Positions 4,589 to 62,162 of a stretch of 64,000 nucleotides of DNA are shown one piece after another (position 1 is the first letter of the stretch; each line of letters opens with the position of its first letter). Made by a program: the position numbers and the translations under genes. The notes below the pieces were generated by a model that was not told where the DNA came from, searched no databases, and saw only the letters and a program-made list of their open reading frames with translations. Source of the DNA: an uncultured virus (IMG/VR IMGVR_UViG_3300031227_016742) (lineage: Duplodnaviria > Heunggongvirae > Uroviricota > Caudoviricetes); IMG/VR virus record IMGVR_UViG_3300031227_016742. One strand, 5' to 3'.

Positions 4589-4648
4589 CCAACAGCAGCC
4601 GACTACCGCTTACCGCTTACCGCTCACCGCTCGCTCGCCTTGCTCGCT
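4588..4648 (+). repeat. Heptamer-repeat intergenic element (TACCGCT)n
   Basis: TACCGCT x3, CACCGCT, then GCTCGC motifs. Confidence 0.85.
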
Positions 4649-4691
4649 CTGCCGGGACGAGGATCATCGTTTCGACAGAGTGAGCAAGAGG

Positions 4692-4720
4692 TTGCTACGT
4701 CCCGTGGCCGTGGTTACCGT
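4692..4720 (+). promoter_or_regulatory. Sigma70-type promoter overlapping palindromic operator
   Basis: TTGCTA-17-TACCGT; TGCTAC-GTCCC-GTGGCC. Confidence 0.6.
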
Positions 4721-4748
4721 CTCCGCACACCCATGAGCGGAGTCCAAC

Positions 4749-5327
4749 ATGTCCGAAGAGAGCGCCCCCCTCCCCCAGCCTGTCCTCGACATCCAGCGCA
4801 CCCAGTGGATCGAGCTGACCGGAGCCGACGACAACCGCCCACTGCGGCTCTCGTCGAACTCGATCGTCCGCTCCATCCAGAACGTCTGCGTCTCCGATAG
4901 CGATAGCCGCAGCCGGATCGAGGTGGCGTGGCCCATCTCCATGGGCCTGCTCGATGGCCTCGGTGGCAAGGCTCCGTCCGTCGGCATCTCGACCTACGAG
5001 GTCAAGGAGACGGTCGATGAGGTCATCGCCGCCATCGAGGGTGTCGGCAAGCGGGTCCGCAAGGCACGCCGAGACCTGGCCTGGAACCAGCACATCGCTC
5101 AGCTGCGCGCCGATCTGGCCGGCTACGGTGACGACGAGGAAGAGATCATGCCCGACATCCCGATGCCCTCCGGTTTCAGCCACCAGGGCCGAGCTCGCAT
5201 CCGCAAGATGCACCACAGGCACATGAAGGGCTCACTGAGCGGGATGATGCCCATGGGCCTCGAGCCCAGCTTCACCTTCGGTCCCGACAACGACGACCTG
5301 GACCTGGACCCGGGCGACTGCGGATAG
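4749..5327 (+). CDS. hypothetical protein
   Basis: ORF with GGAG SD and GC3-rich codons, downstream of promoter. Confidence 0.7.
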   Translation: MSEESAPLPQPVLDIQRTQWIELTGADDNRPLRLSSNSIVRSIQNVCVSDSDSRSRIEVAWPISMGLLDGLGGKAPSVGISTYEVKETVDEVIAAIEGVGKRVRKARRDLAWNQHIAQLRADLAGYGDDEEEIMPDIPMPSGFSHQGRARIRKMHHRHMKGSLSGMMPMGLEPSFTFGPDNDDLDLDPGDCG

Positions 5328-5377
5328 CGCTCACGACCGGCGGCTTCGTCTCCTGTTCCACCCGAGAGGATGTTTGG

Positions 5378-5794
5378 ATGTTCACCTTGACCTCACTGAG
5401 TCTCCCGCTCGAGACCGAGCGGCTGGTCCACCATGACGACGGTCCGTACAAGAGCGGTGAATGGATCTACTCGCCGGCAGATCTTCCGTCGCCCAAGAAC
5501 GAGCCTCCGTGGCCGAACATCAAGGCGCTGATCGTCAAGAGCAAGGACGGTGAACCCGTCAGGCTCAGATCGTGCAAGATCGGCGGGGGTGGCGAGCTGG
5601 TGAAGGTGCACGTCGGACTTGGAGCCAGCCATGAACTCCGCGGTCCTCCCTTCGACATCGTGTCCGGGAGAATGTACGTGTTCGAGAGGTTCCCGTTCGT
5701 GGGGGCCCCGAACCAGGCGATCGTGGTGCTCGCTGAGACCGATCGCATCGAGAGCGTCGAGCTGGTGTGCGAGCGACCTCCACCGCTGGATTGA
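5378..5794 (+). CDS. hypothetical protein
   Basis: ORF with GAGG SD. Confidence 0.6.
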   Translation: MFTLTSLSLPLETERLVHHDDGPYKSGEWIYSPADLPSPKNEPPWPNIKALIVKSKDGEPVRLRSCKIGGGGELVKVHVGLGASHELRGPPFDIVSGRMYVFERFPFVGAPNQAIVVLAETDRIESVELVCERPPPLD

Positions 5795-5823
5795 CCACTG
5801 CTCGTCCGTAGATGCTCACAACC

Positions 5824-5894
5824 AGCGAGCAAAGCGAGCTTTCAGAGAGCGGTAAGCGGTGAGCGGTGATCGGTAAGTGGCGAGCGCAGCTCGC
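5824..5894 (-). repeat. Heptamer-repeat/mini-hairpin element
   Basis: (AGCGGTR)n flanked by GCGAGC motifs and GCGAGC-GCA-GCTCGC hairpin. Confidence 0.85.
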
Positions 5895-6574
5895 TACACA
5901 AACGCGGGTCCGACATGCGACCTCGCCGGCATCAGTCCCTGTTCCCTAAGCGAGACGTAGCTCCCAGGCGTCACTACGATGTGATCGAGGAGCTCGACAC
6001 CGAGCGTCTTGCCCGCGTCCGTGCACCGCTGCGTCACCTCCACGTCCGAAGAGCTCGCCTCGGGCCTGCCGCTGGGGTGATTGTGGAACAGGATGACGGA
6101 GGAGGCTCCCAGGGCGATGGCGGGCCGGAAGACCTGCCTGGGATCGACGATGGTGTGAGCATCGTTGCCCTGGGTCAGGGTGCGCCTTCCGAGGACGTGA
6201 TGAGCTCGGTTCAAGTACAACGCGACCAGGGTTTCGTAGTTCTCGAGCCCCATCGCTCTGACATGTGCAACGGCCTCTTCAGCGCTGACGATCGTATCGT
6301 TCGCGGACAGCTTGCGGGTCGCCATGCGTCGGTACAGCTCACCGGCCGCCACCAGGCGGGCGTAGGCCGCTCCCTGGACGCCTGCTCCCTGGGCCACACC
6401 CAGGTTGTCGATGAGGGTCAGCCTCCCACCAGCCTCCATCAGCAGCCTCTCTGCGACCTCTCTGGGGGAGGCAGAGCCGGTGGATCCCGACAACAGCACG
6501 GACAGTAGATCCACGTCCGATGCGTCGTGGGGGTCGATGATGAACAGTCGTTTGTACAGCGGTAGGCTGGCCAT
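5894..6574 (-). CDS. radC: RadC family JAB/MPN domain protein
   Basis: SDVDLLSVLL N-terminus; VDPRQVF; HNHPSG..AS.SD; LLDHIVV. Confidence 0.92.
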   Translation of the reverse strand: MASLPLYKRLFIIDPHDASDVDLLSVLLSGSTGSASPREVAERLLMEAGGRLTLIDNLGVAQGAGVQGAAYARLVAAGELYRRMATRKLSANDTIVSAEEAVAHVRAMGLENYETLVALYLNRAHHVLGRRTLTQGNDAHTIVDPRQVFRPAIALGASSVILFHNHPSGRPEASSSDVEVTQRCTDAGKTLGVELLDHIVVTPGSYVSLREQGLMPARSHVGPAFV

Positions 6575-6687
6575 GGAGATCTCCTGTCGCTGACAGGGTA
6601 GCCTGACGGTGGGCTATCGCCCACCATGCGCCTTACGCTCTACACCCGTTCGCCACAGCTCACGCTGCCGGAACGAGGATCATCGTT

Positions 6688-6749
6688 CGCGAAGCTGACC
6701 GGCTGTTGGCTGTAGGCTGTAGGCTGTTAGCTGCTGACCAAAGGTCAGC
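6688..6749 (-). repeat. Heptamer-repeat/mini-hairpin element (GGCTGTW)n
   Basis: GGCTGTT/GGCTGTA x4, GCGAAGC and GCTGACC-AAA-GGTCAGC. Confidence 0.85.
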
Positions 6750-7186
6750 TACCATTCCAGCAGGTCCACCCCCCGCCGGCTCGCCTTGACCTGGCTGCGG
6801 CGTTTCTTCCCCTTGGCGCGCTGCTGCCCAACGGCAGGCCTTGGCGCAGCCTTCTCACGGGGTGGGTCGGGATGCAGGCAGGCCTTGACGATGTCGCACA
6901 GCCGCTGCCTCACGATCTGCTCGTTCCTGGACACGAGGCGACGTTTTTCGTGCATCAGCACCAGCTGACCACGCACGTTGACGTGGGATCGATAACGCTG
7001 TCGGATGCGAGCCTTGACGTCCTCCGAGACGGAGTCGTCAGCCGACATGTCCCAGTGCAGTCGGACCTTGGTCTTGTTGTGGTCCCGGTGCATCCCCCCG
7101 CTGCCGCTGGAGATTGCATAAGACCAGGCCAGGTGCCGGGTGGGGATGACGATCGTCTCGTCGATACGGATAGGTCCGCGGGCCAT
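6749..7186 (-). CDS. arfB: ArfB/YaeJ-like ribosome rescue factor homologue with GGM in place of GGQ
   Basis: SSGSGGMH..KV.L.W; G.LVL; R....RN; basic C-terminal tail KKRRSQVKASRR. Confidence 0.85.
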   Translation of the reverse strand: MARGPIRIDETIVIPTRHLAWSYAISSGSGGMHRDHNKTKVRLHWDMSADDSVSEDVKARIRQRYRSHVNVRGQLVLMHEKRRLVSRNEQIVRQRLCDIVKACLHPDPPREKAAPRPAVGQQRAKGKKRRSQVKASRRGVDLLEW

Positions 7187-7189
7187 GAT

Positions 7190-7256
7190 GTCTCCTGGTG
7201 AGGAGACCCTGCGCCTCCTCGGTTTATGTCGGGGTGAGGAGCGTGCGCAATCTCAT
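7190..7256 (-). promoter_or_regulatory. Putative translational attenuator with leader peptide MRLRTLLTPT (7224-7256)
   Basis: SD hidden in GTCTCCT-CACC-AGGAGAC hairpin; alternative pairings with GAGGAGGCGCA and the uORF segment. Confidence 0.65.
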
Positions 7257-7290
7257 GCGTGTCCGTTGCTCTCGCCAGGGGCGAGGTTGT

Positions 7291-7333
7291 GGGCTGATGG
7301 GCTGTTGGCTGTTGGCCGTGAGCGCAGCGAGCC
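7291..7333 (-). repeat. Heptamer-repeat element (GGCTGTT)n
   Basis: GGCTGATG-GGCTGTT-GGCTGTT-GGCCGTG plus GAGCGCAGCGAGC. Confidence 0.7.
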
Positions 7334-7429
7334 ATGGTGGTGGAGGCCCGGACCAGCAAAGGATTATGCCGGCCCGGACCCGAATAGGCTCCATCAGCAT
7401 AGCCACACAGGTATCGTGAGTCAAGAAGT

Positions 7430-7458
7430 TTGCCACCACCAGTAGAGATGGTTACCTT
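7430..7458 (+). promoter_or_regulatory. Promoter/operator upstream of tRNA
   Basis: TTGCCA-17-TACCTT; TGCCAC-CACCA-GTAGAG. Confidence 0.65.
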
Positions 7459-7469
7459 CTGTCGGGTAA

Positions 7470-7547
7470 GGGCTGATGGCCGAGTGGTCCAAGGCAGAAG
7501 GCTTTCAATCCTGAAGTGCGTGGGTTCGAATCCCACTCAGCCCTCCA
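7470..7547 (+). tRNA. Atypical tRNA (anticodon TTC/Glu or ambiguous TTCA loop; U73 discriminator)
   Basis: GGGCTGA/TCAGCCC acceptor stem, D-arm GCC..GGC, GTGGG-TTCGAAT-CCCAC T-arm, encoded CCA; anticodon stem poorly paired. Confidence 0.8.
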
Positions 7548-7623
7548 GATCCCCACTCAGCTCTCTATTTTTCGAACGACTCTTCCGTCGTTCCCACTCT
7601 GCGTCCGAGTCCAAAGAGCAAGA

Positions 7624-8148
7624 ATGATCCGTCCACACACGTACACCCCAGAAGAGCGACGCCACTTCGGCAGGCTGAAGGCCATGGGCGTCACCCTGCA
7701 GCCCGGTATGCATGTGCTGGACCTGCTCTACCCTCACCCGGACGAAGGCGGGGGCTCCCCTTGTGATCACATCGTCCTCACGACCTATATCGGGGGAGAC
7801 GGTTGCCACACGGGCCGGGAGAATGGGAGGGGCGGATCCTCGACGGTCACAGGCTACTACGTCCCAAAGCTGGCCCACCTCGAGACCTTCTGCGCCTGCC
7901 TGGCCGTCGCTGTCGCCCGTGGGGTCGAGTCCTTCCCCGTGAAGGGCTACAAGCACCGATACAAAGAGGTCGGAGGGCCAGGGGTCAAGGCGCTCCCCTA
8001 CTTCGACGATGACCAGTACCACGTGAACTACCTGGTCGGGGTCATCAAGCTGTGGCGGATGCCCGAGTGGAAAGAGCAAGTGATCGAGGGCCTCACCGAG
8101 GTGCTCATCCGCACCGCACCCAAAGACGAAGAGAGGACCGAGCCATGA
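7624..8148 (+). CDS. hypothetical protein
   Basis: ORF, start of coupled operon. Confidence 0.65.
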   Translation: MIRPHTYTPEERRHFGRLKAMGVTLQPGMHVLDLLYPHPDEGGGSPCDHIVLTTYIGGDGCHTGRENGRGGSSTVTGYYVPKLAHLETFCACLAVAVARGVESFPVKGYKHRYKEVGGPGVKALPYFDDDQYHVNYLVGVIKLWRMPEWKEQVIEGLTEVLIRTAPKDEERTEP

Positions 8149-9295: not shown

Positions 9296-9670
9296 ATGAT
9301 TATCGAGCTACTCATCGCTGCGGCCGCCATGGGTGCGGCCTACGGGGTCAGCCGTTCGAGATCTTCCAGGGACGGTTCCAAGTCAGCACGGATCGTCGAC
9401 GACGAGTACGGTCGCACCGAGTCCGAGTACAGCAGGCTCTCGTACTTCGCTGATGTCTTCATGCACATCGAGGAGAGAGGAGTCATGATCAGGCTTCGGG
9501 GCGCGTTCTTGGACAGCGTCGTCTCCGCGGTCGACGAGTGGCCCGGCGGCCCGCAGGACGCCATCCGAGAGGCGTTCTCGAGCCTCGATGGTGAGCTCGT
9601 GCCTGGAGCCAGGAAGCAGATGTGGACGACCTACCTGGAGCGGAAAGAGTATCTCGACAGCATAGAATGA
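9296..9670 (+). CDS. membrane-anchored hypothetical protein, PGG-motif paralogue 3
   Basis: N-terminal hydrophobic segment; DEWPGGPQDAIREAF; AGGAG SD. Confidence 0.7.
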   Translation: MIIELLIAAAAMGAAYGVSRSRSSRDGSKSARIVDDEYGRTESEYSRLSYFADVFMHIEERGVMIRLRGAFLDSVVSAVDEWPGGPQDAIREAFSSLDGELVPGARKQMWTTYLERKEYLDSIE

Positions 9671-29664: not shown

Positions 29665-29821
29665 GAGCCTACGGCTAACAGCCTACAGCTCACAGCCGCT
29701 ACGCACCGGAAGAGCGGTGCTCGTCCCTGGCGAACAGAGTGAGCCCTTCAGGCTGTTGGCTGTCAGCTGTTGGCTGTCAGCTGTCGGCTGTCGGCTGTCG
29801 GCTGTTGGCTGTCAGCTCGCT
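29665..29821. repeat. Pair of oppositely oriented heptamer arrays between convergent genes
   Basis: (ACAGCCT/ACAGCTC) at 29665-29704; about 9 (RGCTGTY) units at 29751-29821. Confidence 0.85.
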
Positions 29822-30456: not shown

Positions 30457-30628
30457 TATTGTTTTCCCTGTCAGCCATGGTGAGCGAAGCGAGCCGAGCG
30501 GTTAGCGGTTAGCGGTTAGCGGTTATCTACGAGCGGAACGAGTATTGTTTTCCCTGTCAGCCATGGTGAGCGAAGCGAGCCGAGCGGTTAGCGGTTAGCG
30601 GTTAGCGGTTATCTACGAGCGGAGCGAG
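30457..30628. repeat. 86-bp tandem duplication, each copy containing (AGCGGTT)4
   Basis: Copies 30457-30542 and 30543-30628, one mismatch. Confidence 0.95.
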
Positions 30629-30639
30629 TTCGAGTGTCA

Positions 30640-36397: not shown

Positions 36398-36478
36398 TGG
36401 CACCCCTGGCGGGACTCGAACCCAATGCGACCTGCCGCTTAGGAGGCGGCTGCTCTAATCCGACTGAGCTACAGGGGC
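36398..36478 (-). tRNA. tRNA-Arg(CCT) with 3-nt insertion in T-stem
   Basis: GCCGC-CTCCTAA-GCGGC anticodon arm, GCTC/GAGC D-arm, TTCGAGT loop, CCA end. Confidence 0.9.
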
Positions 36479-37376: not shown

Positions 37377-37435
37377 CGCGAAGCGGCTGTAAGCTGTCGA
37401 CTGTTGGCTGTAAGCTGGCGGTCTCCGACCGCCCG
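37377..37435 (-). repeat. Heptamer-repeat/mini-hairpin element
   Basis: CGC-GAA-GCG, (RGCTGTW)n, GGCGGTC-TCC-GACCGCC. Confidence 0.8.
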
Positions 37436-39303: not shown

Positions 39304-39351
39304 AGCGGTGAGCGGTGAGCGGTGAGCGGTAATCGGCGAGCGTAGCGAGCG
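39304..39351 (-). repeat. Heptamer-repeat element
   Basis: AGCGGTG x3, AGCGGTA, GAGCGTAGCGAGC. Confidence 0.85.
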
Positions 39352-40002: not shown

Positions 40003-40045
40003 CCGCGAAGCGGCTGTTGGCTGTTGGCTGTTGGCTGTCAGCTGT
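40003..40045 (-). repeat. Heptamer-repeat/mini-hairpin element
   Basis: CCGC-GAA-GCGG then GGCTGTT x3. Confidence 0.85.
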
Positions 40046-40817
40046 GCTCTGGGGCCTCATCGGGCTCACTGGCCTCGCTGGTCACCGTGACGCCCGGGTC
40101 ACGAGAGAGCTCGGCGAGGGTGGTGCCGATGTTGACCGGCGCCATCGGGTCGCCGATCCTGGCGACCGGGGGCTGTGGGTCCGGGATCGGGGCCATGGAT
40201 AGCTTCGGGGTCGTGTCTCCGTCGGCAGGGGCGATGATCTCGCCCTTGGCGGCGAGCTCGCTCATAGCCGCCTCGGCGTCGAGCAGGCGCCCACTCTTGG
40301 CGGCCACGTTGTGTTCGTTGACCAGCCGGTCGACCTCGAGCTGTTCCTTGGTCTTGGGCTGCACGGGGCAGCGGTCACCGAGCATCTGGGCGATGATGGG
40401 GTTGACCTGACGGCGCTGCACCATGCCTTCGTACTTCCCGTCTCCGAGGCTCTCGAAGATCAGGATGACGCGCAAGCCCAGGTAGCGGCGCTCGCCGTCG
40501 TCTCCGGAGGCCTGCAGCCTGAACCTCTGCGGACAGACCGCCTCGAAGCATACACCGAGGAAGTGATCACCACTCTCATCGGTCTCGAAGCCGGAGATGC
40601 CCTCGAAGCTCACCTCGAGCGGGAGATGACGCTTCACGAAGCCTTCGAAGACGGGCACCATCCCGATGGGATCATCGCCGGCCCGCATGCGCGCCTCGAG
40701 ATCTTCGGCGATGCGTTCACAGATCGCCTCCTTGCGCGCATAGTCGCGAATCTTGGTGATCTGGCGCTGCTTTCGTTGGCTCAGCCTGCGGAACTTGAGT
40801 TCGGTTTGACGTCCCAT
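40038..40817 (-). CDS. hypothetical protein
   Basis: ORF with SD. Confidence 0.7.
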   Translation of the reverse strand: MGRQTELKFRRLSQRKQRQITKIRDYARKEAICERIAEDLEARMRAGDDPIGMVPVFEGFVKRHLPLEVSFEGISGFETDESGDHFLGVCFEAVCPQRFRLQASGDDGERRYLGLRVILIFESLGDGKYEGMVQRRQVNPIIAQMLGDRCPVQPKTKEQLEVDRLVNEHNVAAKSGRLLDAEAAMSELAAKGEIIAPADGDTTPKLSMAPIPDPQPPVARIGDPMAPVNIGTTLAELSRDPGVTVTSEASEPDEAPEHS

Positions 40818-44442: not shown

Positions 44443-44913
44443 TTACCAGCTGATGTAGAGGAAGTCCCAGTCGTCTTCGGCCGATGGTGGGCGCCAGAAA
44501 CGTCCATCCTCGTCGTTCTCCGTGTCGACACCCTCGATGATCCAGCGTCCGATCTTGTCCTCGATCTCGCCCGGAAGAACGATCATCATCTCGTCGTGCA
44601 TACGCTCCCAACGATCGTACAGATCCGGATCATCATGAGACTCATCGGTGACGCTCTCCCGGTAGCGTCGGTGCCAGTCGTCGTTGAGGCAGTTGCGCCC
44701 GAGCCTCACCCACTTCTCGACACAGATAAAGCCCTTGGCTTGGATGGCATCGAGGGCCACGTTCTTCTCGACACAGATAAAGCCCTTGGCTTGGATGGCA
44801 TCGAGGGCCACGTTGTTTGTGACGAAGCAGCTGTCGAGCTCGGGATCGGCGGTGTAGATATCGGAGGCCTGCTCGGGGGGCACGACCTTGCACAAAAGGA
44901 TGTCGAGGCTCAT
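44443..44913 (-). CDS. hypothetical protein with 17-aa internal duplication
   Basis: NVALDAIQAKGFICVEK x2. Confidence 0.65.
   Translation of the reverse strand: MSLDILLCKVVPPEQASDIYTADPELDSCFVTNNVALDAIQAKGFICVEKNVALDAIQAKGFICVEKWVRLGRNCLNDDWHRRYRESVTDESHDDPDLYDRWERMHDEMMIVLPGEIEDKIGRWIIEGVDTENDEDGRFWRPPSAEDDWDFLYISW
44713..44814. repeat. Perfect 51-bp tandem duplication
   Basis: Copies 44713-44763 and 44764-44814. Confidence 0.95.
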
Positions 44914-54931: not shown

Positions 54932-55004
54932 CCCCCCGAAGGGGCTGTAGGCTGTTGGCTGTGAGCTGTAGGCTGCGACCGAAGGTCGCCCTGACCGAAG
55001 GTCA
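54932..55004 (-). repeat. Heptamer-repeat/mini-hairpin element
   Basis: CCCC-GAA-GGGG, (RGCTGTD)4, GACC-GAA-GGTC x2. Confidence 0.9.
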
Positions 55005-56225: not shown

Positions 56226-56270
56226 CCGCGAAGCGGGCTGTTGGCTGTAAGCTGTAGGCTGTAGGCTGTT
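56226..56270 (-). repeat. Heptamer-repeat/mini-hairpin element
   Basis: CCGC-GAA-GCGG then (RGCTGTW)5. Confidence 0.85.
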
Positions 56271-58932: not shown

Positions 58933-58985
58933 CCCCGAAGGGAGAGCGGTAAGCGGTAAGCGGTAAGCGGTGGCCGTAGGCCACA
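58933..58985 (-). repeat. Heptamer-repeat/mini-hairpin element (direct repeat B)
   Basis: CCC-GAA-GGG, (AGCGGTR)4, GTGGCC-GTA-GGCCAC. Confidence 0.9.
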
Positions 58986-58986
58986 G

Positions 58987-60486
58987 TCATCCCTTGACGT
59001 TGGCGACGGGCCATAGTCGGTTTTCCACGGTGCAGATGCCAGCTACGACCAGGGTGTTGAGCACCGGGTCCAGCTTCTTGTAGACGTGCCGGCACTCGTC
59101 CAGCGGGATCTGCCGGTGATTGGAGAGCACGCCGACCACTTCGACGCCACCCAAAAAGCGGGTGATCGTCTTCATCTCGCGGTCTATTTCCTTGCCGCGG
59201 CCCTTGAGGCCGCCCTCCGCTGGGCGCTTCTTCTTGGCAGCCATACGCCCCAGCACCCGTCCAGCGCCGTGGTTGACGGAGAAGCACGACAGAGCGGAGT
59301 GCTGCCACATGAACTGGCGCAGCTCTTCGGAGGCGGAGTCTCGGTCGTAGGCACTGCGTAGCTCGGGCTGCAGCAGGCGTGGAGGCATGGCGCGCAGCAG
59401 CGCTGCGCCCTCGAACATGGAGCCCGGGACGATGATGGGGTGGCCATCGTTCTGCCAGCGGGTCCCAGTCAACATAGGGTGGCCCGCCGGGAAAGCACGG
59501 GTCGCGCCCTTGCGATGAACCCAGGCCTCTCTCCAGTGCTCGCCATCGAGACACACCTGTTCGCGCTGGACCAGGTTATGGCTGATCTCGTAGACCGGCT
59601 CGGGGCTGCAGTCGGAGAAGACCTCAGTGGAAGCCTCGGCGACAGCGCGCTGCATGACCCAGCGGTTGGCCGAGGCGTAGTTGGCCGCGGCGTTGTGGTG
59701 GTCGATGTACAGCAGGCCGAGCTCGGAGTCGTCGTGGATGACGGCCTCGTCTCCACGTACGCCGGTGAGCTCCTTGTTGGTCCGGAAGAACCAGTCCGCG
59801 GTCTTGTAGCCGAAACCGCGAGAGCCGGAGTGTACGATGGCGTAGGCCTGGCCGTCGTCCTCGTCACACAGAAGCTCCACGAAGTGGTTGCCCGATCCAA
59901 GCGATCCGAGCTGGACGGCGGCCGAGTCGAAGGCCAAGGGCACCATCTTTTGGTCGTAGCTGTCGCTGACCTCGAAGTGATGCCGCTCGCAGAAGCTGGT
60001 GTCCACGCCGAGCACAGAGGGTCCGTGTCGGATGACATCCGCTATCTGGCGCTCGGAGAAGCTCGCCATCAGTGAGGTGCGGTGCTTGCCGATCCCCAAT
60101 GGGATGCGGGCTGCCACCGCGTCGATCCAGGCCCGACGCACGACGGGATCGACGATGTGTTCTGCGGTGACACCGCACAGCTTCATCGCTATCATCCCGC
60201 AGCCGATATCGAAGCCTGCTCCACCGAGAGCCAGGGTGCCTTCCGTCGCGATGACCATCCCGATGGGCACCCCGTAGCCGGGGTGGGTGTCGGGCAGCAG
60301 CCACGCACCGAGGACGCCCTCGACGGACGCTCCAAAAGCCGCCTGACGCCACAGGGGCTCGTCGCTCATGGCGAGAGCGTACAGCTCATCGTCGAGAAAC
60401 GCTGTCACCGGCACCTTCATCTCGCCCACAGCCCGCAGCTGGACCGTGGACTCGTCGAGGCGCTGTACCTGGCTCATGTAGGACAT
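58987..60486 (-). CDS. rtcB: RtcB family RNA ligase
   Basis: PDTHPGYGVPIG, DIGCG, GSLGSGNHFVE, HSGSRG, HN, HRKGAT, HGAGR. Confidence 0.95.
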   Translation of the reverse strand: MSYMSQVQRLDESTVQLRAVGEMKVPVTAFLDDELYALAMSDEPLWRQAAFGASVEGVLGAWLLPDTHPGYGVPIGMVIATEGTLALGGAGFDIGCGMIAMKLCGVTAEHIVDPVVRRAWIDAVAARIPLGIGKHRTSLMASFSERQIADVIRHGPSVLGVDTSFCERHHFEVSDSYDQKMVPLAFDSAAVQLGSLGSGNHFVELLCDEDDGQAYAIVHSGSRGFGYKTADWFFRTNKELTGVRGDEAVIHDDSELGLLYIDHHNAAANYASANRWVMQRAVAEASTEVFSDCSPEPVYEISHNLVQREQVCLDGEHWREAWVHRKGATRAFPAGHPMLTGTRWQNDGHPIIVPGSMFEGAALLRAMPPRLLQPELRSAYDRDSASEELRQFMWQHSALSCFSVNHGAGRVLGRMAAKKKRPAEGGLKGRGKEIDREMKTITRFLGGVEVVGVLSNHRQIPLDECRHVYKKLDPVLNTLVVAGICTVENRLWPVANVKG

Positions 60487-60998
60487 CACCAGCGCCTGTC
60501 GTCGGGCTTGTAGCAGTCCGGCATCGTCACCGGACCCAGCGGGAGAGCTTCCTCGTTCCAGGGCTCCCAGGCGTCGATAGCGCCGCAACCAGAGCAGAGG
60601 TCATGTGCACCAGGGTCTGTCGCGACGGTCTCCTCGCACCAGGAACACCGATGAGTGTGCCCGAAGCCGGAGACCTCGGTGATCTCCACCGAGGCGACGC
60701 TCACGTTATCGACCTCGTCGATCTCTCCCCACGCTCGGCGCTCATCGTAGCTGCTGTAGTCGAGATCTTCGGTGTACTGCAAGACGCGGCGCATCTTGAC
60801 AGTGGGGATGACGCCGACCGGACCAGAGGGTGTCCATTCCGGCTTTTCGGAGAACTGACGGTTCCCCTTGATGCGCTTGTCGCCCATCCTGGCATCCACC
60901 GGGCTCCACGGGCCGTAATCGTGGCGCTGAAACACCTGGATCCAGCAATCAGTGGTCTGTTCCCACATCCACATGGTCTTGTCGTCGGTCGAGCTCAT
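60486..60998 (-). CDS. hypothetical protein with C-terminal zinc ribbon
   Basis: AGGAG SD; CSWC, CSGC. Confidence 0.65.
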   Translation of the reverse strand: MSSTDDKTMWMWEQTTDCWIQVFQRHDYGPWSPVDARMGDKRIKGNRQFSEKPEWTPSGPVGVIPTVKMRRVLQYTEDLDYSSYDERRAWGEIDEVDNVSVASVEITEVSGFGHTHRCSWCEETVATDPGAHDLCSGCGAIDAWEPWNEEALPLGPVTMPDCYKPDDRRW

Positions 60999-62110: not shown

Positions 62111-62162
62111 CCCCGAAGGGAGAGCGGTGAGCGGTAAGCGGTAAGCGGCGACCGGAGGTCGC
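62111..62162 (-). repeat. Heptamer-repeat/mini-hairpin element
   Basis: CCC-GAA-GGG, (AGCGGTR)3, GCGACC-GGA-GGTCGC. Confidence 0.9.

What the first reader, a model, noticed from the sequence alone, without database searches (positions are those of the whole stretch)
7190..7256. Four-segment translational attenuator controlling the arfB-like gene
Seen on the minus strand: uORF MRLRTLLTPT (7256-7224) contains seg1 UGCGC-ACG-CUCCUC (7249-7236), which pairs with seg2 GAGGAG-GCGCA (7220-7210) across the uORF stop. Seg3 GUCUCCU (7207-7201) pairs perfectly with seg4 AGGAGAC (7196-7190), the arfB SD. Seg2 GAGGAG can alternatively pair with CUCCUC (7205-7200), freeing the SD. Known: this 1:2/3:4 versus 2:3 logic matches ermC-type attenuators. 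Inference: ribosome stalling on the uORF switches on the rescue-factor homologue, giving the element a translation-stress sensor. The uORF SD is weak.
Basis: partly seen in the sequence, partly recalled or inferred. Interest (0 to 1): 0.8.

Follow-up and report, generated by a model that had tools for sequence, protein, structure and literature searches.

The report
Conserved uORF switch before ArfB-like gene
A ten-codon upstream reading frame and mutually exclusive RNA helices precede a ribosome-rescue-factor-like gene on an uncultured salt-lake genetic element and recur in its only known relative, so they look like an erythromycin-resistance-type translational switch, but this is untested.

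Summary
On the minus strand lie a 10-codon uORF (7256-7224), hairpin 1:2 (7250-7236 with 7220-7209), the SD-sequestering hairpin 3:4 (7207-7201 with 7196-7190) and the ArfB-like start (7186).

The protein has one known relative lineage (62% identity, locus L001). Its leader keeps a promoter-like site, a 5' stem-loop, a 10-codon uORF (UAA becomes UAG), the exact 70-nt spacing between the two AUGs, hairpin 1:2 (one double compensatory change), an 8-bp 2:3 helix (two A/G changes opposite U) and an identical hairpin 3:4.

An erm-type, ribosome-dependent translational attenuator is therefore the best reading (about 0.45). Four things count against it:
- The uORF has no convincing SD.
- Its peptide is not conserved (RLR arrest motif in the window only).
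- Equilibrium folding with segment 1 masked does not reliably open the RBS.
- Only two lineages exist, and there are no expression data.

The gene itself is unusual: full-length ArfB-like, but with GGM in place of GGQ. Verdict: a real, conserved leader; the mechanism is plausible but unproven; a new variant of a known kind.

The parts
7396..7424 (-). Promoter-like site: -35 TTGACT (7424-7419), 17-nt spacer, -10 TATGCT (7401-7396). The expected transcript start is about 7390-7388.
   Evidence: the only sigma-70-like site in 6500-7700 (1 found; shuffles give a mean of 0.1). L001 has TTGACA-17-TAAGCT at the aligned place, with a diverged spacer.
7344..7381 (-). Very stable 5' stem-loop of the leader (arms 7381-7367 and 7358-7344).
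   Evidence: -30.5 kcal/mol (window) and -26.0 (L001). The 12 of 12 pairs listed are kept in both. One double compensatory change (G-C to A-U at 7380/7345) and four one-sided changes all keep pairing.
7260..7317 (-). About 58 nt present only in the window. It holds a heptamer array (CAGCCAA-type, 7320-7288) and a small hairpin CUCGCC/GGCGAG (7285-7271).
   Evidence: alignment gap in L001; heptamer arrays; fold.
7224..7256 (-). uORF, 10 codons plus stop: MRLRTLLTPT*. Weak SD (GGA at -8 to -6).
   Evidence: L001 has MNLRPSPMIR* at the same columns, and UAA becomes UAG. The SD duplex is -3.2 kcal/mol.
7236..7250 (-). Segment 1 (UUGCGC 7250-7245, bulge ACG, CUCCUC 7241-7236), inside uORF codons 3-7.
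   Evidence: pairs with segment 2, -15.7 kcal/mol.
7209..7220 (-). Segment 2 (GAGGAGGCGCAG), SD-like, with no start codon behind it in the window. It pairs either with segment 1 or, through 7220-7213, with segment 3.
7200..7207 (-). Segment 3 (GUCUCCUC), the anti-SD arm. It pairs with segment 4 (7 bp) or with segment 2 (8 bp).
   Evidence: Identical in L001.
7190..7196 (-). Segment 4 (AGGAGAC), the Shine-Dalgarno sequence of the ArfB-like gene, 3 nt (AUC, 7189-7187) before the ATG.
   Evidence: SD duplex -7.4 kcal/mol. SD core unpaired probability 0.19 in the full leader.
6749..7186 (-). ArfB-like protein, 145 aa. GGM replaces GGQ (G30-G31-M32, codons 7099-7091). The basic C-terminal tail is kept.
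   Evidence: NCBIfam ArfB NF006718 at 81.8 bits (cut-off 100), profile positions 3-137 of 140. Pfam RF-1 at 25 bits (cut-off 35); alignments.

Best explanation
The leader of the ArfB-like gene is a ribosome-dependent translational attenuator of the erm type.

Transcription starts at the conserved promoter-like site near 7390. The mRNA begins with a stable 5' stem-loop.

By default, segment 1 (inside the 10-codon uORF) pairs with the SD-like segment 2, and segment 3 pairs with segment 4. That buries the AGGAG Shine-Dalgarno sequence of the ArfB-like gene: the OFF state.

A ribosome that dwells on uORF codons 1-7 covers segment 1 but not segment 2. Segment 2 is then free to form the 8-bp helix with segment 3, and the SD and start codon are released: the ON state. 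A ribosome that reaches the uORF stop also covers segment 2, so smooth translation does not induce.

The signal is slowed or arrested elongation. In the window's copy the uORF begins M-R-L-R, a known macrolide/ketolide arrest context. The relative's copy does not, so the sensor is more likely generic.

Shown here: the anatomy, the energies and the conservation. Inferred: translation of the uORF, the switch itself, its signal, and the benefit of inducing a rescue-factor homologue.
For: Anatomy at the stated coordinates. Hairpins 1:2 and 3:4 are in the MFE in three contexts.

Helix energies:
- Window: 1:2 -15.7, 2:3 -14.5, 3:4 -10.4 kcal/mol.
- L001: -14.4, -13.3, -14.4 kcal/mol.
- RNA from segment 2 to the start codon, folded alone, gives the 2:3 helix as the MFE in both sequences.

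Conservation in the only other lineage (P0003, 62% identity):
- The locus is syntenic over about 8 kb.
- The distance from uORF AUG to main AUG is exactly 70 nt in both, with 21 substitutions and no indel.
- Closed structure: 92.1% of 38 cells are paired, against 42-66% when partners are slid, with one double compensatory change (U-A to C-G).
- 2:3 helix: 100% of 16 cells are paired, against 50-69% when slid. The two changes are A/G opposite an unchanged U, as expected of a strand with two partners.
- Hairpin 3:4 has no substitution in 18 nt (chance 0.0005 if the 21 changes were scattered over the 70 nt).
- The uORF keeps its ATG, its length and a stop (UAA to UAG) although 15 of its 33 nt differ. 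Simulated chance is 0.029 at the local substitution rate and 0.14 at the overall rate.

Shuffle controls: 9 of 2000 and 31 of 2000 for 1:2; 16 of 2000 and 24 of 2000 for 2:3.

The conserved promoter-like hexamers put the uORF inside the transcript.

Literature:
- For the genuine ermB attenuator, passages print comparable energies (-17.69 for the anti-sequestering hairpin, -12.15 for the sequestering one). They also say that full-length folding shows only the closed hairpin (PMC11264731).
- Arg-Leu-Arg with Leu in the P site and Arg in the A site is a macrolide/ketolide arrest site (PMC8298421 passages).
- arfB is among the genes most strongly induced by translation inhibitors in Streptomyces coelicolor, through WblC, which is itself under a uORF attenuator (PMC7157823 passages).
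Against: - The uORF has no convincing SD (-3.2 kcal/mol against a median of -5.9) and none is conserved in L001. Known erm leaders, as I recall, have their own SD.
- The peptide is not conserved: 3 of 10 residues are identical, and RLR is present in the window only.
- At equilibrium with segment 1 masked by a 27-nt footprint, the cost of opening the RBS stays at 4.1-9.1 kcal/mol (window) and 6.6-9.9 (L001), depending on how much downstream sequence is allowed. In L001 hairpin 3:4 (-14.4) is not weaker than 2:3 (-13.3).
- SD bases stay mostly paired for 9 of 10 footprint positions in the window and 10 of 10 in L001.
- By a genome-wide 'masking shift' metric the leader ranks 25 of 74 gene starts.
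- Only two lineages exist, so the covariation statistics carry no weight (254 of 500 shuffles reach the observed score).
- The 2:3 complementarity could be a by-product of two neighbouring SD/anti-SD hairpins.
- There are no expression data.
Confidence: 0.45

Rival explanations
1. There is no ribosome-sensing switch. Hairpin 3:4 is a constitutive RBS-occluding hairpin that keeps translation of the ArfB-like protein low. Hairpin 1:2 is a separate structural element, for example for stability or processing. The uORF is not translated, and the 2:3 complementarity follows from two adjacent anti-SD/SD hairpins.
For: - The uORF SD is weak and unconserved.
- The peptide is not conserved.
- The equilibrium stays closed with segment 1 masked.
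- The rank is 25 of 74 in the masking metric.
- Other genes here also carry small SD hairpins. The radC start has CCUGUC..GACAGGAG, kept in L001, and the motif recurs at three other starts.
Against: - It does not explain why an SD-like GAGGAG with no start codon behind it (window) is kept and kept sequestered in both lineages.
- It does not explain why the ATG, the 10-codon length and the stop of the uORF survive 45% divergence.
- It does not explain why both changes in segment 2 keep pairing with both partners.
Confidence: 0.3
2. The alternative helices form a switch thrown by a trans-acting factor rather than by a uORF ribosome. Candidates are a small RNA, an RNA-binding protein (possibly the basic ArfB-like protein itself as an autoregulator), or a 30S subunit docking on the SD-like segment 2 as a standby site.
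For: - The alternative helices are conserved.
- The whole 18 nt of hairpin 3:4, including its CACC loop, is conserved exactly. That suggests sequence-specific recognition beyond pairing.
- The uORF lacks an SD.
Against: - No candidate factor was identified.
- No Rfam family matches the leader.
- It does not explain the conserved uORF frame.
Confidence: 0.12
3. The inverted repeats act at the DNA level as operators for a dimeric repressor. The 7+4+7 palindrome GTCTCCT-CACC-AGGAGAC overlaps the ribosome-binding site only by coincidence.
For: Exact conservation of the 18-bp palindrome, including its spacer.
Against: - It lies about 190 nt downstream of the only conserved promoter-like site.
- Its 3' arm is the SD at the right distance from the ATG.
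- Hairpin 1:2 is kept by compensatory and wobble changes, including G-U pairs, which make sense only in RNA.
Confidence: 0.05

Closest known systems
erm-type translational attenuators (ermC four-segment model, recalled; ermB two-hairpin model as described in PMC11264731, passages read; ermD/ErmDL in PMC8298421, passages read)
   Same: - A short leader ORF overlaps the first strand of an upstream hairpin.
- The main gene's SD and start are buried in a second hairpin.
- The middle strands can pair with each other, so a ribosome arrested in the leader ORF unmasks the main RBS.
- The helix energies are of similar size.
- The window's uORF starts M-R-L-R, the arrest context of ErmDL.
   Different: - The regulated gene is an ArfB-like release-factor-family protein, not an rRNA methyltransferase.
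- The uORF lacks a good SD.
- The peptide differs between the two lineages.
- No drug or other signal is known.
- There is no sequence similarity to erm leaders.
- It sits on an uncultured salt-lake element.
cat/cmlA-type attenuators (single hairpin melted directly by a ribosome stalled in the leader ORF; recalled, not read here)
   Same: A leader ORF plus an SD-sequestering hairpin.
   Different: Here the uORF stop (7224) lies 16 nt (7223-7208) before segment 3 (starts at 7207). A uORF ribosome cannot reach hairpin 3:4 directly, so an intermediate strand (segment 2) is needed.
uORF-sensed induction of ribosome-rescue or ribosome-protection factors. Examples: hflXr (PMC6310831), vmlR (PMC9226507) and the toiL uORF (PMC12121999), all seen as search listing and abstract start only; and wblC/whiB7, whose regulon includes arfB (PMC7157823, passages read).
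   Same: A short uORF senses impaired translation and raises a factor that acts on troubled ribosomes. In S. coelicolor, ArfB rises 50- to 150-fold with tetracycline.
   Different: Those systems act mainly through transcription attenuation or through a transcription factor. Here no intrinsic terminator is present (0 found), the switch is at the RBS, and the sensor is wired directly to the arfB-like gene.
[quoted passage not shown]
   Same: Expression of a rescue factor is coupled to the state of the translation machinery through a feature of its own mRNA.
   Different: arfA uses a non-stop mRNA and tmRNA tagging, not a uORF with alternative helices.

Membership tests
erm-type leader-peptide translational attenuator | A short leader ORF on the same transcript, upstream of the regulated gene | tested here: met
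   A 10-codon ORF lies at 7256-7224, downstream of the conserved promoter-like site. An ORF of the same length is at the same columns in L001. Translation itself was not tested.
erm-type leader-peptide translational attenuator | The leader ORF has its own functional ribosome-binding site | tested here: inconclusive
   The best anti-SD duplex is -3.2 kcal/mol, against a median of -5.9 over 75 starts. Thirty-nine of those 75 putative starts are also weaker than -6. No SD is conserved in L001. The region is moderately unpaired (0.61 and 0.51).
erm-type leader-peptide translational attenuator | The SD and start of the regulated gene are sequestered in a hairpin | tested here: met
   7 bp (window) and 9 bp (L001), at -10.4 and -14.4 kcal/mol. 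The SD core unpaired probability is 0.19 in both full leaders.
erm-type leader-peptide translational attenuator | A mutually exclusive alternative helix (2:3) of comparable stability | tested here: met
   8 bp in both, at -14.5 and -13.3 kcal/mol. All 16 of 16 cells are paired.
erm-type leader-peptide translational attenuator | Segment 1 lies in the leader ORF, so that an arrested ribosome masks it and leaves segment 2 free | tested here: met
   Segment 1 covers codons 3-7. With a footprint reaching about 14 nt past the first base of the P-site codon (recalled value), P-site codons 1-7 spare segment 2 and codons 8-10 cover it (layouts).
erm-type leader-peptide translational attenuator | Masking segment 1 opens the RBS | tested here: inconclusive
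   Folding from segment 2 onward gives 2:3 as the MFE in both. With flanks allowed, however, the opening cost stays at 4-10 kcal/mol and the SD is mostly paired. ermB behaves similarly in silico according to PMC11264731.
erm-type leader-peptide translational attenuator | A defined arrest peptide or inducer | not testable with these tools
   The window has the R-L-R (+X+) context and L001 has N-L-R.
ArfB (NCBIfam NF006718, alternative ribosome-rescue factor B) | A full-length match above the curated cut-off | tested here: not met
   81.8 bits against a cut-off of 100, though it covers profile positions 3-137 of 140. Pfam RF-1 scores 25 bits against 35.
ArfB (NCBIfam NF006718, alternative ribosome-rescue factor B) | The catalytic GGQ motif | tested here: not met
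   GGM in both lineages. Of the 154 proteins held, a pattern search found the glycine motif followed by Q in 142, by M in 4 (all of this subfamily), by G in 2, and found no motif in 6.
ArfB (NCBIfam NF006718, alternative ribosome-rescue factor B) | A basic C-terminal tail that probes the empty mRNA channel | tested here: met
   R110, R123, K127, K134 and R137 are invariant across 16 aligned sequences, including both GGM proteins. The function of the tail is recalled from the ArfB literature.
Intrinsic-terminator transcription attenuator | A G+C-rich hairpin followed by a U run in the leader | tested here: not met
   0 terminator-like sites in 6500-7700. No U run follows 1:2 or 3:4.
Any curated cis-regulatory RNA family (Rfam 15) | A covariance-model match in the leader | tested here: not met
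   In the leader of either locus no family reaches its gathering score. One weak, sub-threshold match touches the window's promoter end (S-element, 7419-7478, 22.2 bits against 47, E 0.57). The tRNA is the only match that reaches a gathering score.

The most novel reading that the evidence does not exclude
A large uncultured salt-lake mobile element or phage carries a self-contained translation-stress module.

A cis-acting uORF switch senses stalled host ribosomes, for instance after attack on tRNAs or ribosomes by host defence or by antibiotics. It then turns on a remodelled ArfB whose catalytic glutamine is replaced by methionine.

Next to it lies an odd tRNA whose anticodon arm fits an 8-nt loop, and the same 64-kb window carries an RtcB RNA ligase. 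The GGM protein would then be a counter-defence factor that is either independent of glutamine methylation or altered in function. The attenuator would be the first direct uORF sensor wired to a ribosome-rescue-family gene.
Probability: 0.15. Interest if true: 0.8.

Novelty: new variant of a known kind. Interest (0 to 1): 0.55.

Why it matters
How alternative ribosome-rescue factors are switched on is well understood only for arfA. Among the papers seen here, arfB appears only as induced by ribosome-targeting drugs. In Streptomyces this runs through WblC (PMC7157823); in Pseudomonas it is reported in biofilms exposed to tobramycin (PMC13159725).

Four full-text searches found no cis-acting leader or uORF described for an arfB-family gene. 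A direct uORF/alternative-helix switch in front of an ArfB-like gene would add a new output to the erm-type attenuator logic. It would also suggest that mobile elements carry their own sensor of host translation arrest.

The GGM substitution, kept in both known lineages together with the ribosome-binding tail, gives a natural variant with which to ask what the GGQ glutamine is needed for. The leader is compact (about 70 nt from uORF AUG to main AUG) and can be tested directly by reporter fusions and toeprinting.

Tried and rejected
**More homologous leaders**
- blastn against phages and plasmids gave no match.
- Protein-guided scans of viral contigs with either protein found none.
- The exact 18-mer of hairpin 3:4 has 0 matches in viral contigs.
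- A degenerate GGMHRDHN-coding pattern gave 1 locus in viral contigs and 4 in genome contigs. None of the 5 encodes a release-factor-like protein.
- The metagenome scan with the window protein found none. With P0003 it found two loci carrying the same sequence.
- Word-indexed protein searches with both proteins found only these two lineages plus one weak GGQ hit.
- The HMMER scan of 1.84 billion representatives gave P0003 at 1.9e-45, and the next hit at 3.6e-18 is an ordinary GGQ protein.

**Context and expression**
- No whole genome is held for the window.
- There are no earlier notes of this scan.
- No RNA holder is listed among the sequencing runs.
- Contigs of the 4 runs laid are identical to the window where they cover it, so they add no natural variants.

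**Readings rejected**
- Transcription attenuation by an intrinsic terminator: 0 terminator-like sites.
- Direct melting of the SD hairpin by a uORF ribosome (cat type): rejected on distance.
- A start codon behind the SD-like segment 2: L001 has GUG 5 nt after it, opening a 15-codon frame, but the window has none. It is not conserved and was dropped.
- A longer in-frame uORF (71-aa ORF 7439-7224): its upstream starts lie at or before the -10 hexamer.
- The ATG at 7335 in another frame is absent from L001.

**Metric that did not help**
- My 'masking shift' metric did not single the leader out (rank 25 of 74). It rewards direct unmasking of distant anti-SD strands, so it is a poor detector, but the negative result stands.

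**Not attempted**
- Structure prediction of the protein and complex prediction.

Full report
**1. What is there**

- An ATG at 7256 opens ten codons (MRLRTLLTPT) that end at TAA 7226-7224.
- UUGCGC-ACG-CUCCUC (7250-7236) lies inside that frame.
- GAGGAGGCGCAG (7220-7209) follows the stop.
- GUCUCCU (7207-7201), a CACC loop and AGGAGAC (7196-7190) come next, and then the ATG of a 145-codon gene at 7186.

RNAfold puts the two hairpins (1:2 and 3:4) into the minimum-energy structure in all three contexts tried: 131 nt, 88 nt and the 233-nt putative full leader. The alternative pairing is better than reported. GAGGAGGC (7220-7213) pairs with GUCUCCUC (7207-7200) over 8 bp with a 5-nt loop. Evaluated alone, the helices are 1:2 -15.7, 2:3 -14.5 and 3:4 -10.4 kcal/mol.

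**2. The gene and its setting**

The gene product matches NCBIfam's ArfB model over its whole length (positions 3-137 of 140). It scores 81.8 bits, below the cut-off of 100, and Pfam RF-1 scores 25 bits against 35. Its nearest solved relatives are ICT1/mL62 and ArfB/YaeJ.

The catalytic GGQ is GGM (SGSGGMHRDHN). The basic C-terminal tail residues are invariant in a 16-sequence alignment.

The window has about 63% G+C and is made mostly of ORFs without family matches. The exceptions are a few phage-associated or mobile-element families: PcfJ-like, RadC, SLT, a ChlI/ComM-like ATPase, a sliding-clamp-like protein, RtcB and several PHROGs of unknown function.
- No whole genome is held.
- The protein's own cluster was seen on 4 contigs, the longest 385 kb.
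- Runs that hold the DNA are salt-lake metagenomes.

A tRNA gene (7470-7547, + strand) diverges from the leader.

**3. The decisive comparison**

A HMMER scan of 1.84 billion representatives found one close relative, P0003 (62% identity, also GGM). Everything else is at 37% identity or less, and those fetched have GGQ. Its locus L001 (an 80-kb metagenome contig; L002 is the same sequence) is syntenic with the window over about 8 kb. The order is tRNA, leader, ArfB-like gene, radC, PcfJ-like gene. Coding regions are 68-76% identical at the DNA level, so non-coding conservation is informative.

The leader aligns with these features kept:
- (a) TTGACA-17-TAAGCT, where the window has TTGACT-17-TATGCT (the only sigma-70-like site found in 6500-7700), with a diverged spacer.
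- (b) A very stable 5' stem-loop (window 7381-7344, -30.5 kcal/mol; L001 -26.0). All 12 of 12 listed pairs are kept, through one double compensatory change and four one-sided changes.
- (c) A ten-codon uORF at the same columns (MNLRPSPMIR), with UAA changed to UAG.
- (d) Exactly 70 nt from uORF AUG to main AUG, with 21 substitutions and no indel.
- (e) Hairpin 1:2, at -14.4 kcal/mol.
- (f) An 8-bp 2:3 helix, at -13.3 kcal/mol.
- (g) Hairpin 3:4 with all 18 nt identical, extended to 9 bp, at -14.4 kcal/mol.

The window alone carries about 58 extra nucleotides between the 5' stem-loop and the uORF, including a heptamer array.

**4. Is the conservation meaningful?**

- In the window's register, 92.1% of the 38 pair cells of the closed structure are standard pairs, against 42-66% when partners are slid by 1-3 columns. 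One pair changes on both sides (U-A to C-G).
- All 16 cells of the 2:3 helix pair, against 50-69% when slid. The two substitutions in segment 2 are A to G and G to A opposite unchanged U residues of segment 3. These are the only changes that keep pairing with an invariant partner.
- If the 21 substitutions fell at random over the 70 nt, hairpin 3:4 would escape them with probability 0.0005.
- The uORF interior is the most diverged part (15 of 33 nt). A simulation at that local rate keeps ATG, open frame and stop in 2.9% of trials, and in 14% at the overall rate.
- Composition-preserving shuffles reach the observed 1:2 hairpin in 9 of 2000 (window) and 31 of 2000 (L001) trials. They reach the 2:3 helix in 16 of 2000 and 24 of 2000.

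With two lineages that share ancestry, none of this amounts to a covariation proof. The tool's own shuffle control is uninformative (254 of 500).

**5. Does the switch work on paper?**

The geometry fits. I recall a ribosomal footprint reaching about 14 nt past the first base of the P-site codon. On that basis, P-site codons 1-7 cover segment 1 and spare segment 2, while codons 8-10 and the stop also cover segment 2 (layouts). So only a ribosome that lingers early in the uORF could free segment 2.

The energetics are balanced rather than decisive:
- RNA from segment 2 to the start codon, folded alone, gives the 2:3 helix as the MFE in both lineages.
- When flanking sequence may pair, the ensemble cost of opening -14 to +3 with segment 1 masked remains 4.1-9.1 kcal/mol in the window and 6.6-9.9 in L001. 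Unmasked, it is 7.4-10.7 and 12.6-13.6.
- SD bases stay mostly paired at 9 of 10 footprint positions in the window and at 10 of 10 in L001.
- A crude genome-wide metric of how much a 27-nt upstream mask lowers the opening cost ranks this leader 25th of 74 gene starts.

For comparison, passages of PMC11264731 give -17.69 and -12.15 kcal/mol for the two ermB hairpins. They also say that full-length folding predicts only the closed hairpin. Equilibrium folding is therefore not expected to show the induced state of a real attenuator either.

**6. Weak points**

- The uORF has no convincing Shine-Dalgarno sequence (-3.2 kcal/mol; median of 75 putative starts -5.9; 36 of 75 at -6 or better), and nothing SD-like is conserved in L001.
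- The peptides share 3 of 10 residues.
- The window's M-R-L-R is the context in which macrolides and ketolides arrest ribosomes, with Leu in the P site and Arg in the A site (PMC8298421 passages). That position would cover segment 1 well. L001 has N-L-R, so I treat this as a lead for the window only.
- No RNA data exist (reported only as tried).

**7. Mechanism and rivals**

I commit to a ribosome-dependent, erm-type translational attenuator (0.45). By default 1:2 and 3:4 form and the SD is buried. A ribosome dwelling on uORF codons 1-7 frees segment 2, 2:3 forms, and the SD and AUG are exposed.

The anatomy, energies and conservation are shown. uORF translation, switching and the signal are inferred.

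Rivals:
- Two independent hairpins with an untranslated uORF (0.30).
- The same helices thrown by a trans-acting factor or a standby 30S subunit (0.12).
- DNA operators (0.05).

An intrinsic-terminator attenuator is excluded (0 sites). A cat-type direct-melting attenuator is excluded by the 16 nt between the uORF stop and segment 3.

**8. Relation to what is known**

It works like erm leaders but is not a member of any erm leader family. The target gene differs, there is no sequence similarity, and no inducer is known.

The physiological logic has precedents:
- arfB is one of the genes most strongly induced by tetracycline in Streptomyces coelicolor. The increase is 50- to 150-fold, through WblC, whose own expression is under a uORF attenuator (PMC7157823 passages).
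- arfB was reported as upregulated by tobramycin in Pseudomonas aeruginosa biofilms (PMC13159725 passages).
- hflXr, vmlR and topAI are controlled by stalling-sensitive leaders (search listings only).

Four full-text searches turned up no cis-acting uORF or leader described for an arfB-family gene. That is the basis for calling this a new variant of a known kind. Subscription-only papers are not covered by these searches.

**9. Verdict**

The leader is real and under selection, and the specific mechanism is plausible but untested.

Interest is 0.55. It is a compact, testable element in front of an unusual GGM ArfB-like gene, and the evidence is limited to two lineages.

Noticed in passing
window 7099-7076 (-), within CDS 6749-7186: The ArfB-like protein reads GGMHRDHN where relatives read GGQHVNK. 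GGM is present in both known lineages, and in 4 of the 154 proteins held (all of this subfamily). The C-terminal basic residues stay invariant.
   Followed up: partly
window 7470-7547 (+); L001 3697-3774 and 3528-3601 (-): The tRNA that diverges from the leader has a poor anticodon stem. ARAGORN calls it Glu(UUC) in the window, but gives an 8-nt anticodon loop with 'ttca' (Glu|SeC) in L001. The 8-nt-loop register is supported by an A-U to U-G change. All three copies encode CCA and keep the loop UUUCAA. It could be a suppressor-like or quadruplet-type tRNA, or a decaying gene.
   Followed up: partly
window 6701-6728, 7300-7320, 29677-29697, 29751-29813, 37385-37412, 40012-40046, 54943-54977, 56236-56270; and 4604-4631, 5848-5875, 30497-30524, 30583-30610, 39304-39331, 58945-58972, 62123-62150: There are two families of tandem heptamer arrays (NACAGCC and NACCGCT, 3-9 units). 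All 8 arrays of the first family and 7 of 10 of the second lie in intergenic spacers, and these read C-rich and G-poor on the strand of an adjacent gene. The ArfB-like gene is flanked by two of them, and L001 lacks both. They may be RNA-level signals such as Rho-loading or protein-binding sites. That is speculation.
   Followed up: partly
window 4599-5873: Two genes (4749-5327 and 5378-5794, + strand, no family match) lie between 50-nt inverted repeats (4599-4648 and 5824-5873, 82% complementary). They are absent from L001 between radC and the PcfJ-like gene, which looks like a cassette insertion.
   Followed up: partly
window 4642-4671 and 6658-6687: A 30-nt repeat (90% identical) contains the 14-nt near-palindrome ACGAGGATCATCGT. 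It looks like an operator and lies in two spacers.
   Followed up: no
window 6575-6600 (-); L001 4460-4486: The radC start is also preceded by a small hairpin that includes its SD (CCUGUCAnCGACAGGAG), and this is kept in L001. The motif CGACAGGAG (GAGACAGGAG at the last) recurs before the starts at 9296, 28483 and 52285.
   Followed up: no
window 58987-60588 (-), 36398-36478 (-): An RtcB RNA ligase (Pfam 1.7e-69) and a tRNA-Arg(CCU) lie on the same element as the ArfB-like gene. Together they are a set of translation-repair or translation-supply genes.
   Followed up: no
window 30457-30629 and 44713-44814: There is an 86-nt unit repeated twice (98% matches) in a spacer. A perfect 51-nt tandem duplication lies inside the ORF 44443-44913.
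   Followed up: no
L001 3977-4024 (+): In L001 only, a GUG lies 5 nt after the SD-like segment 2. It opens a 15-codon frame that overlaps the ArfB-like start. The window has no start codon there.
   Followed up: partly
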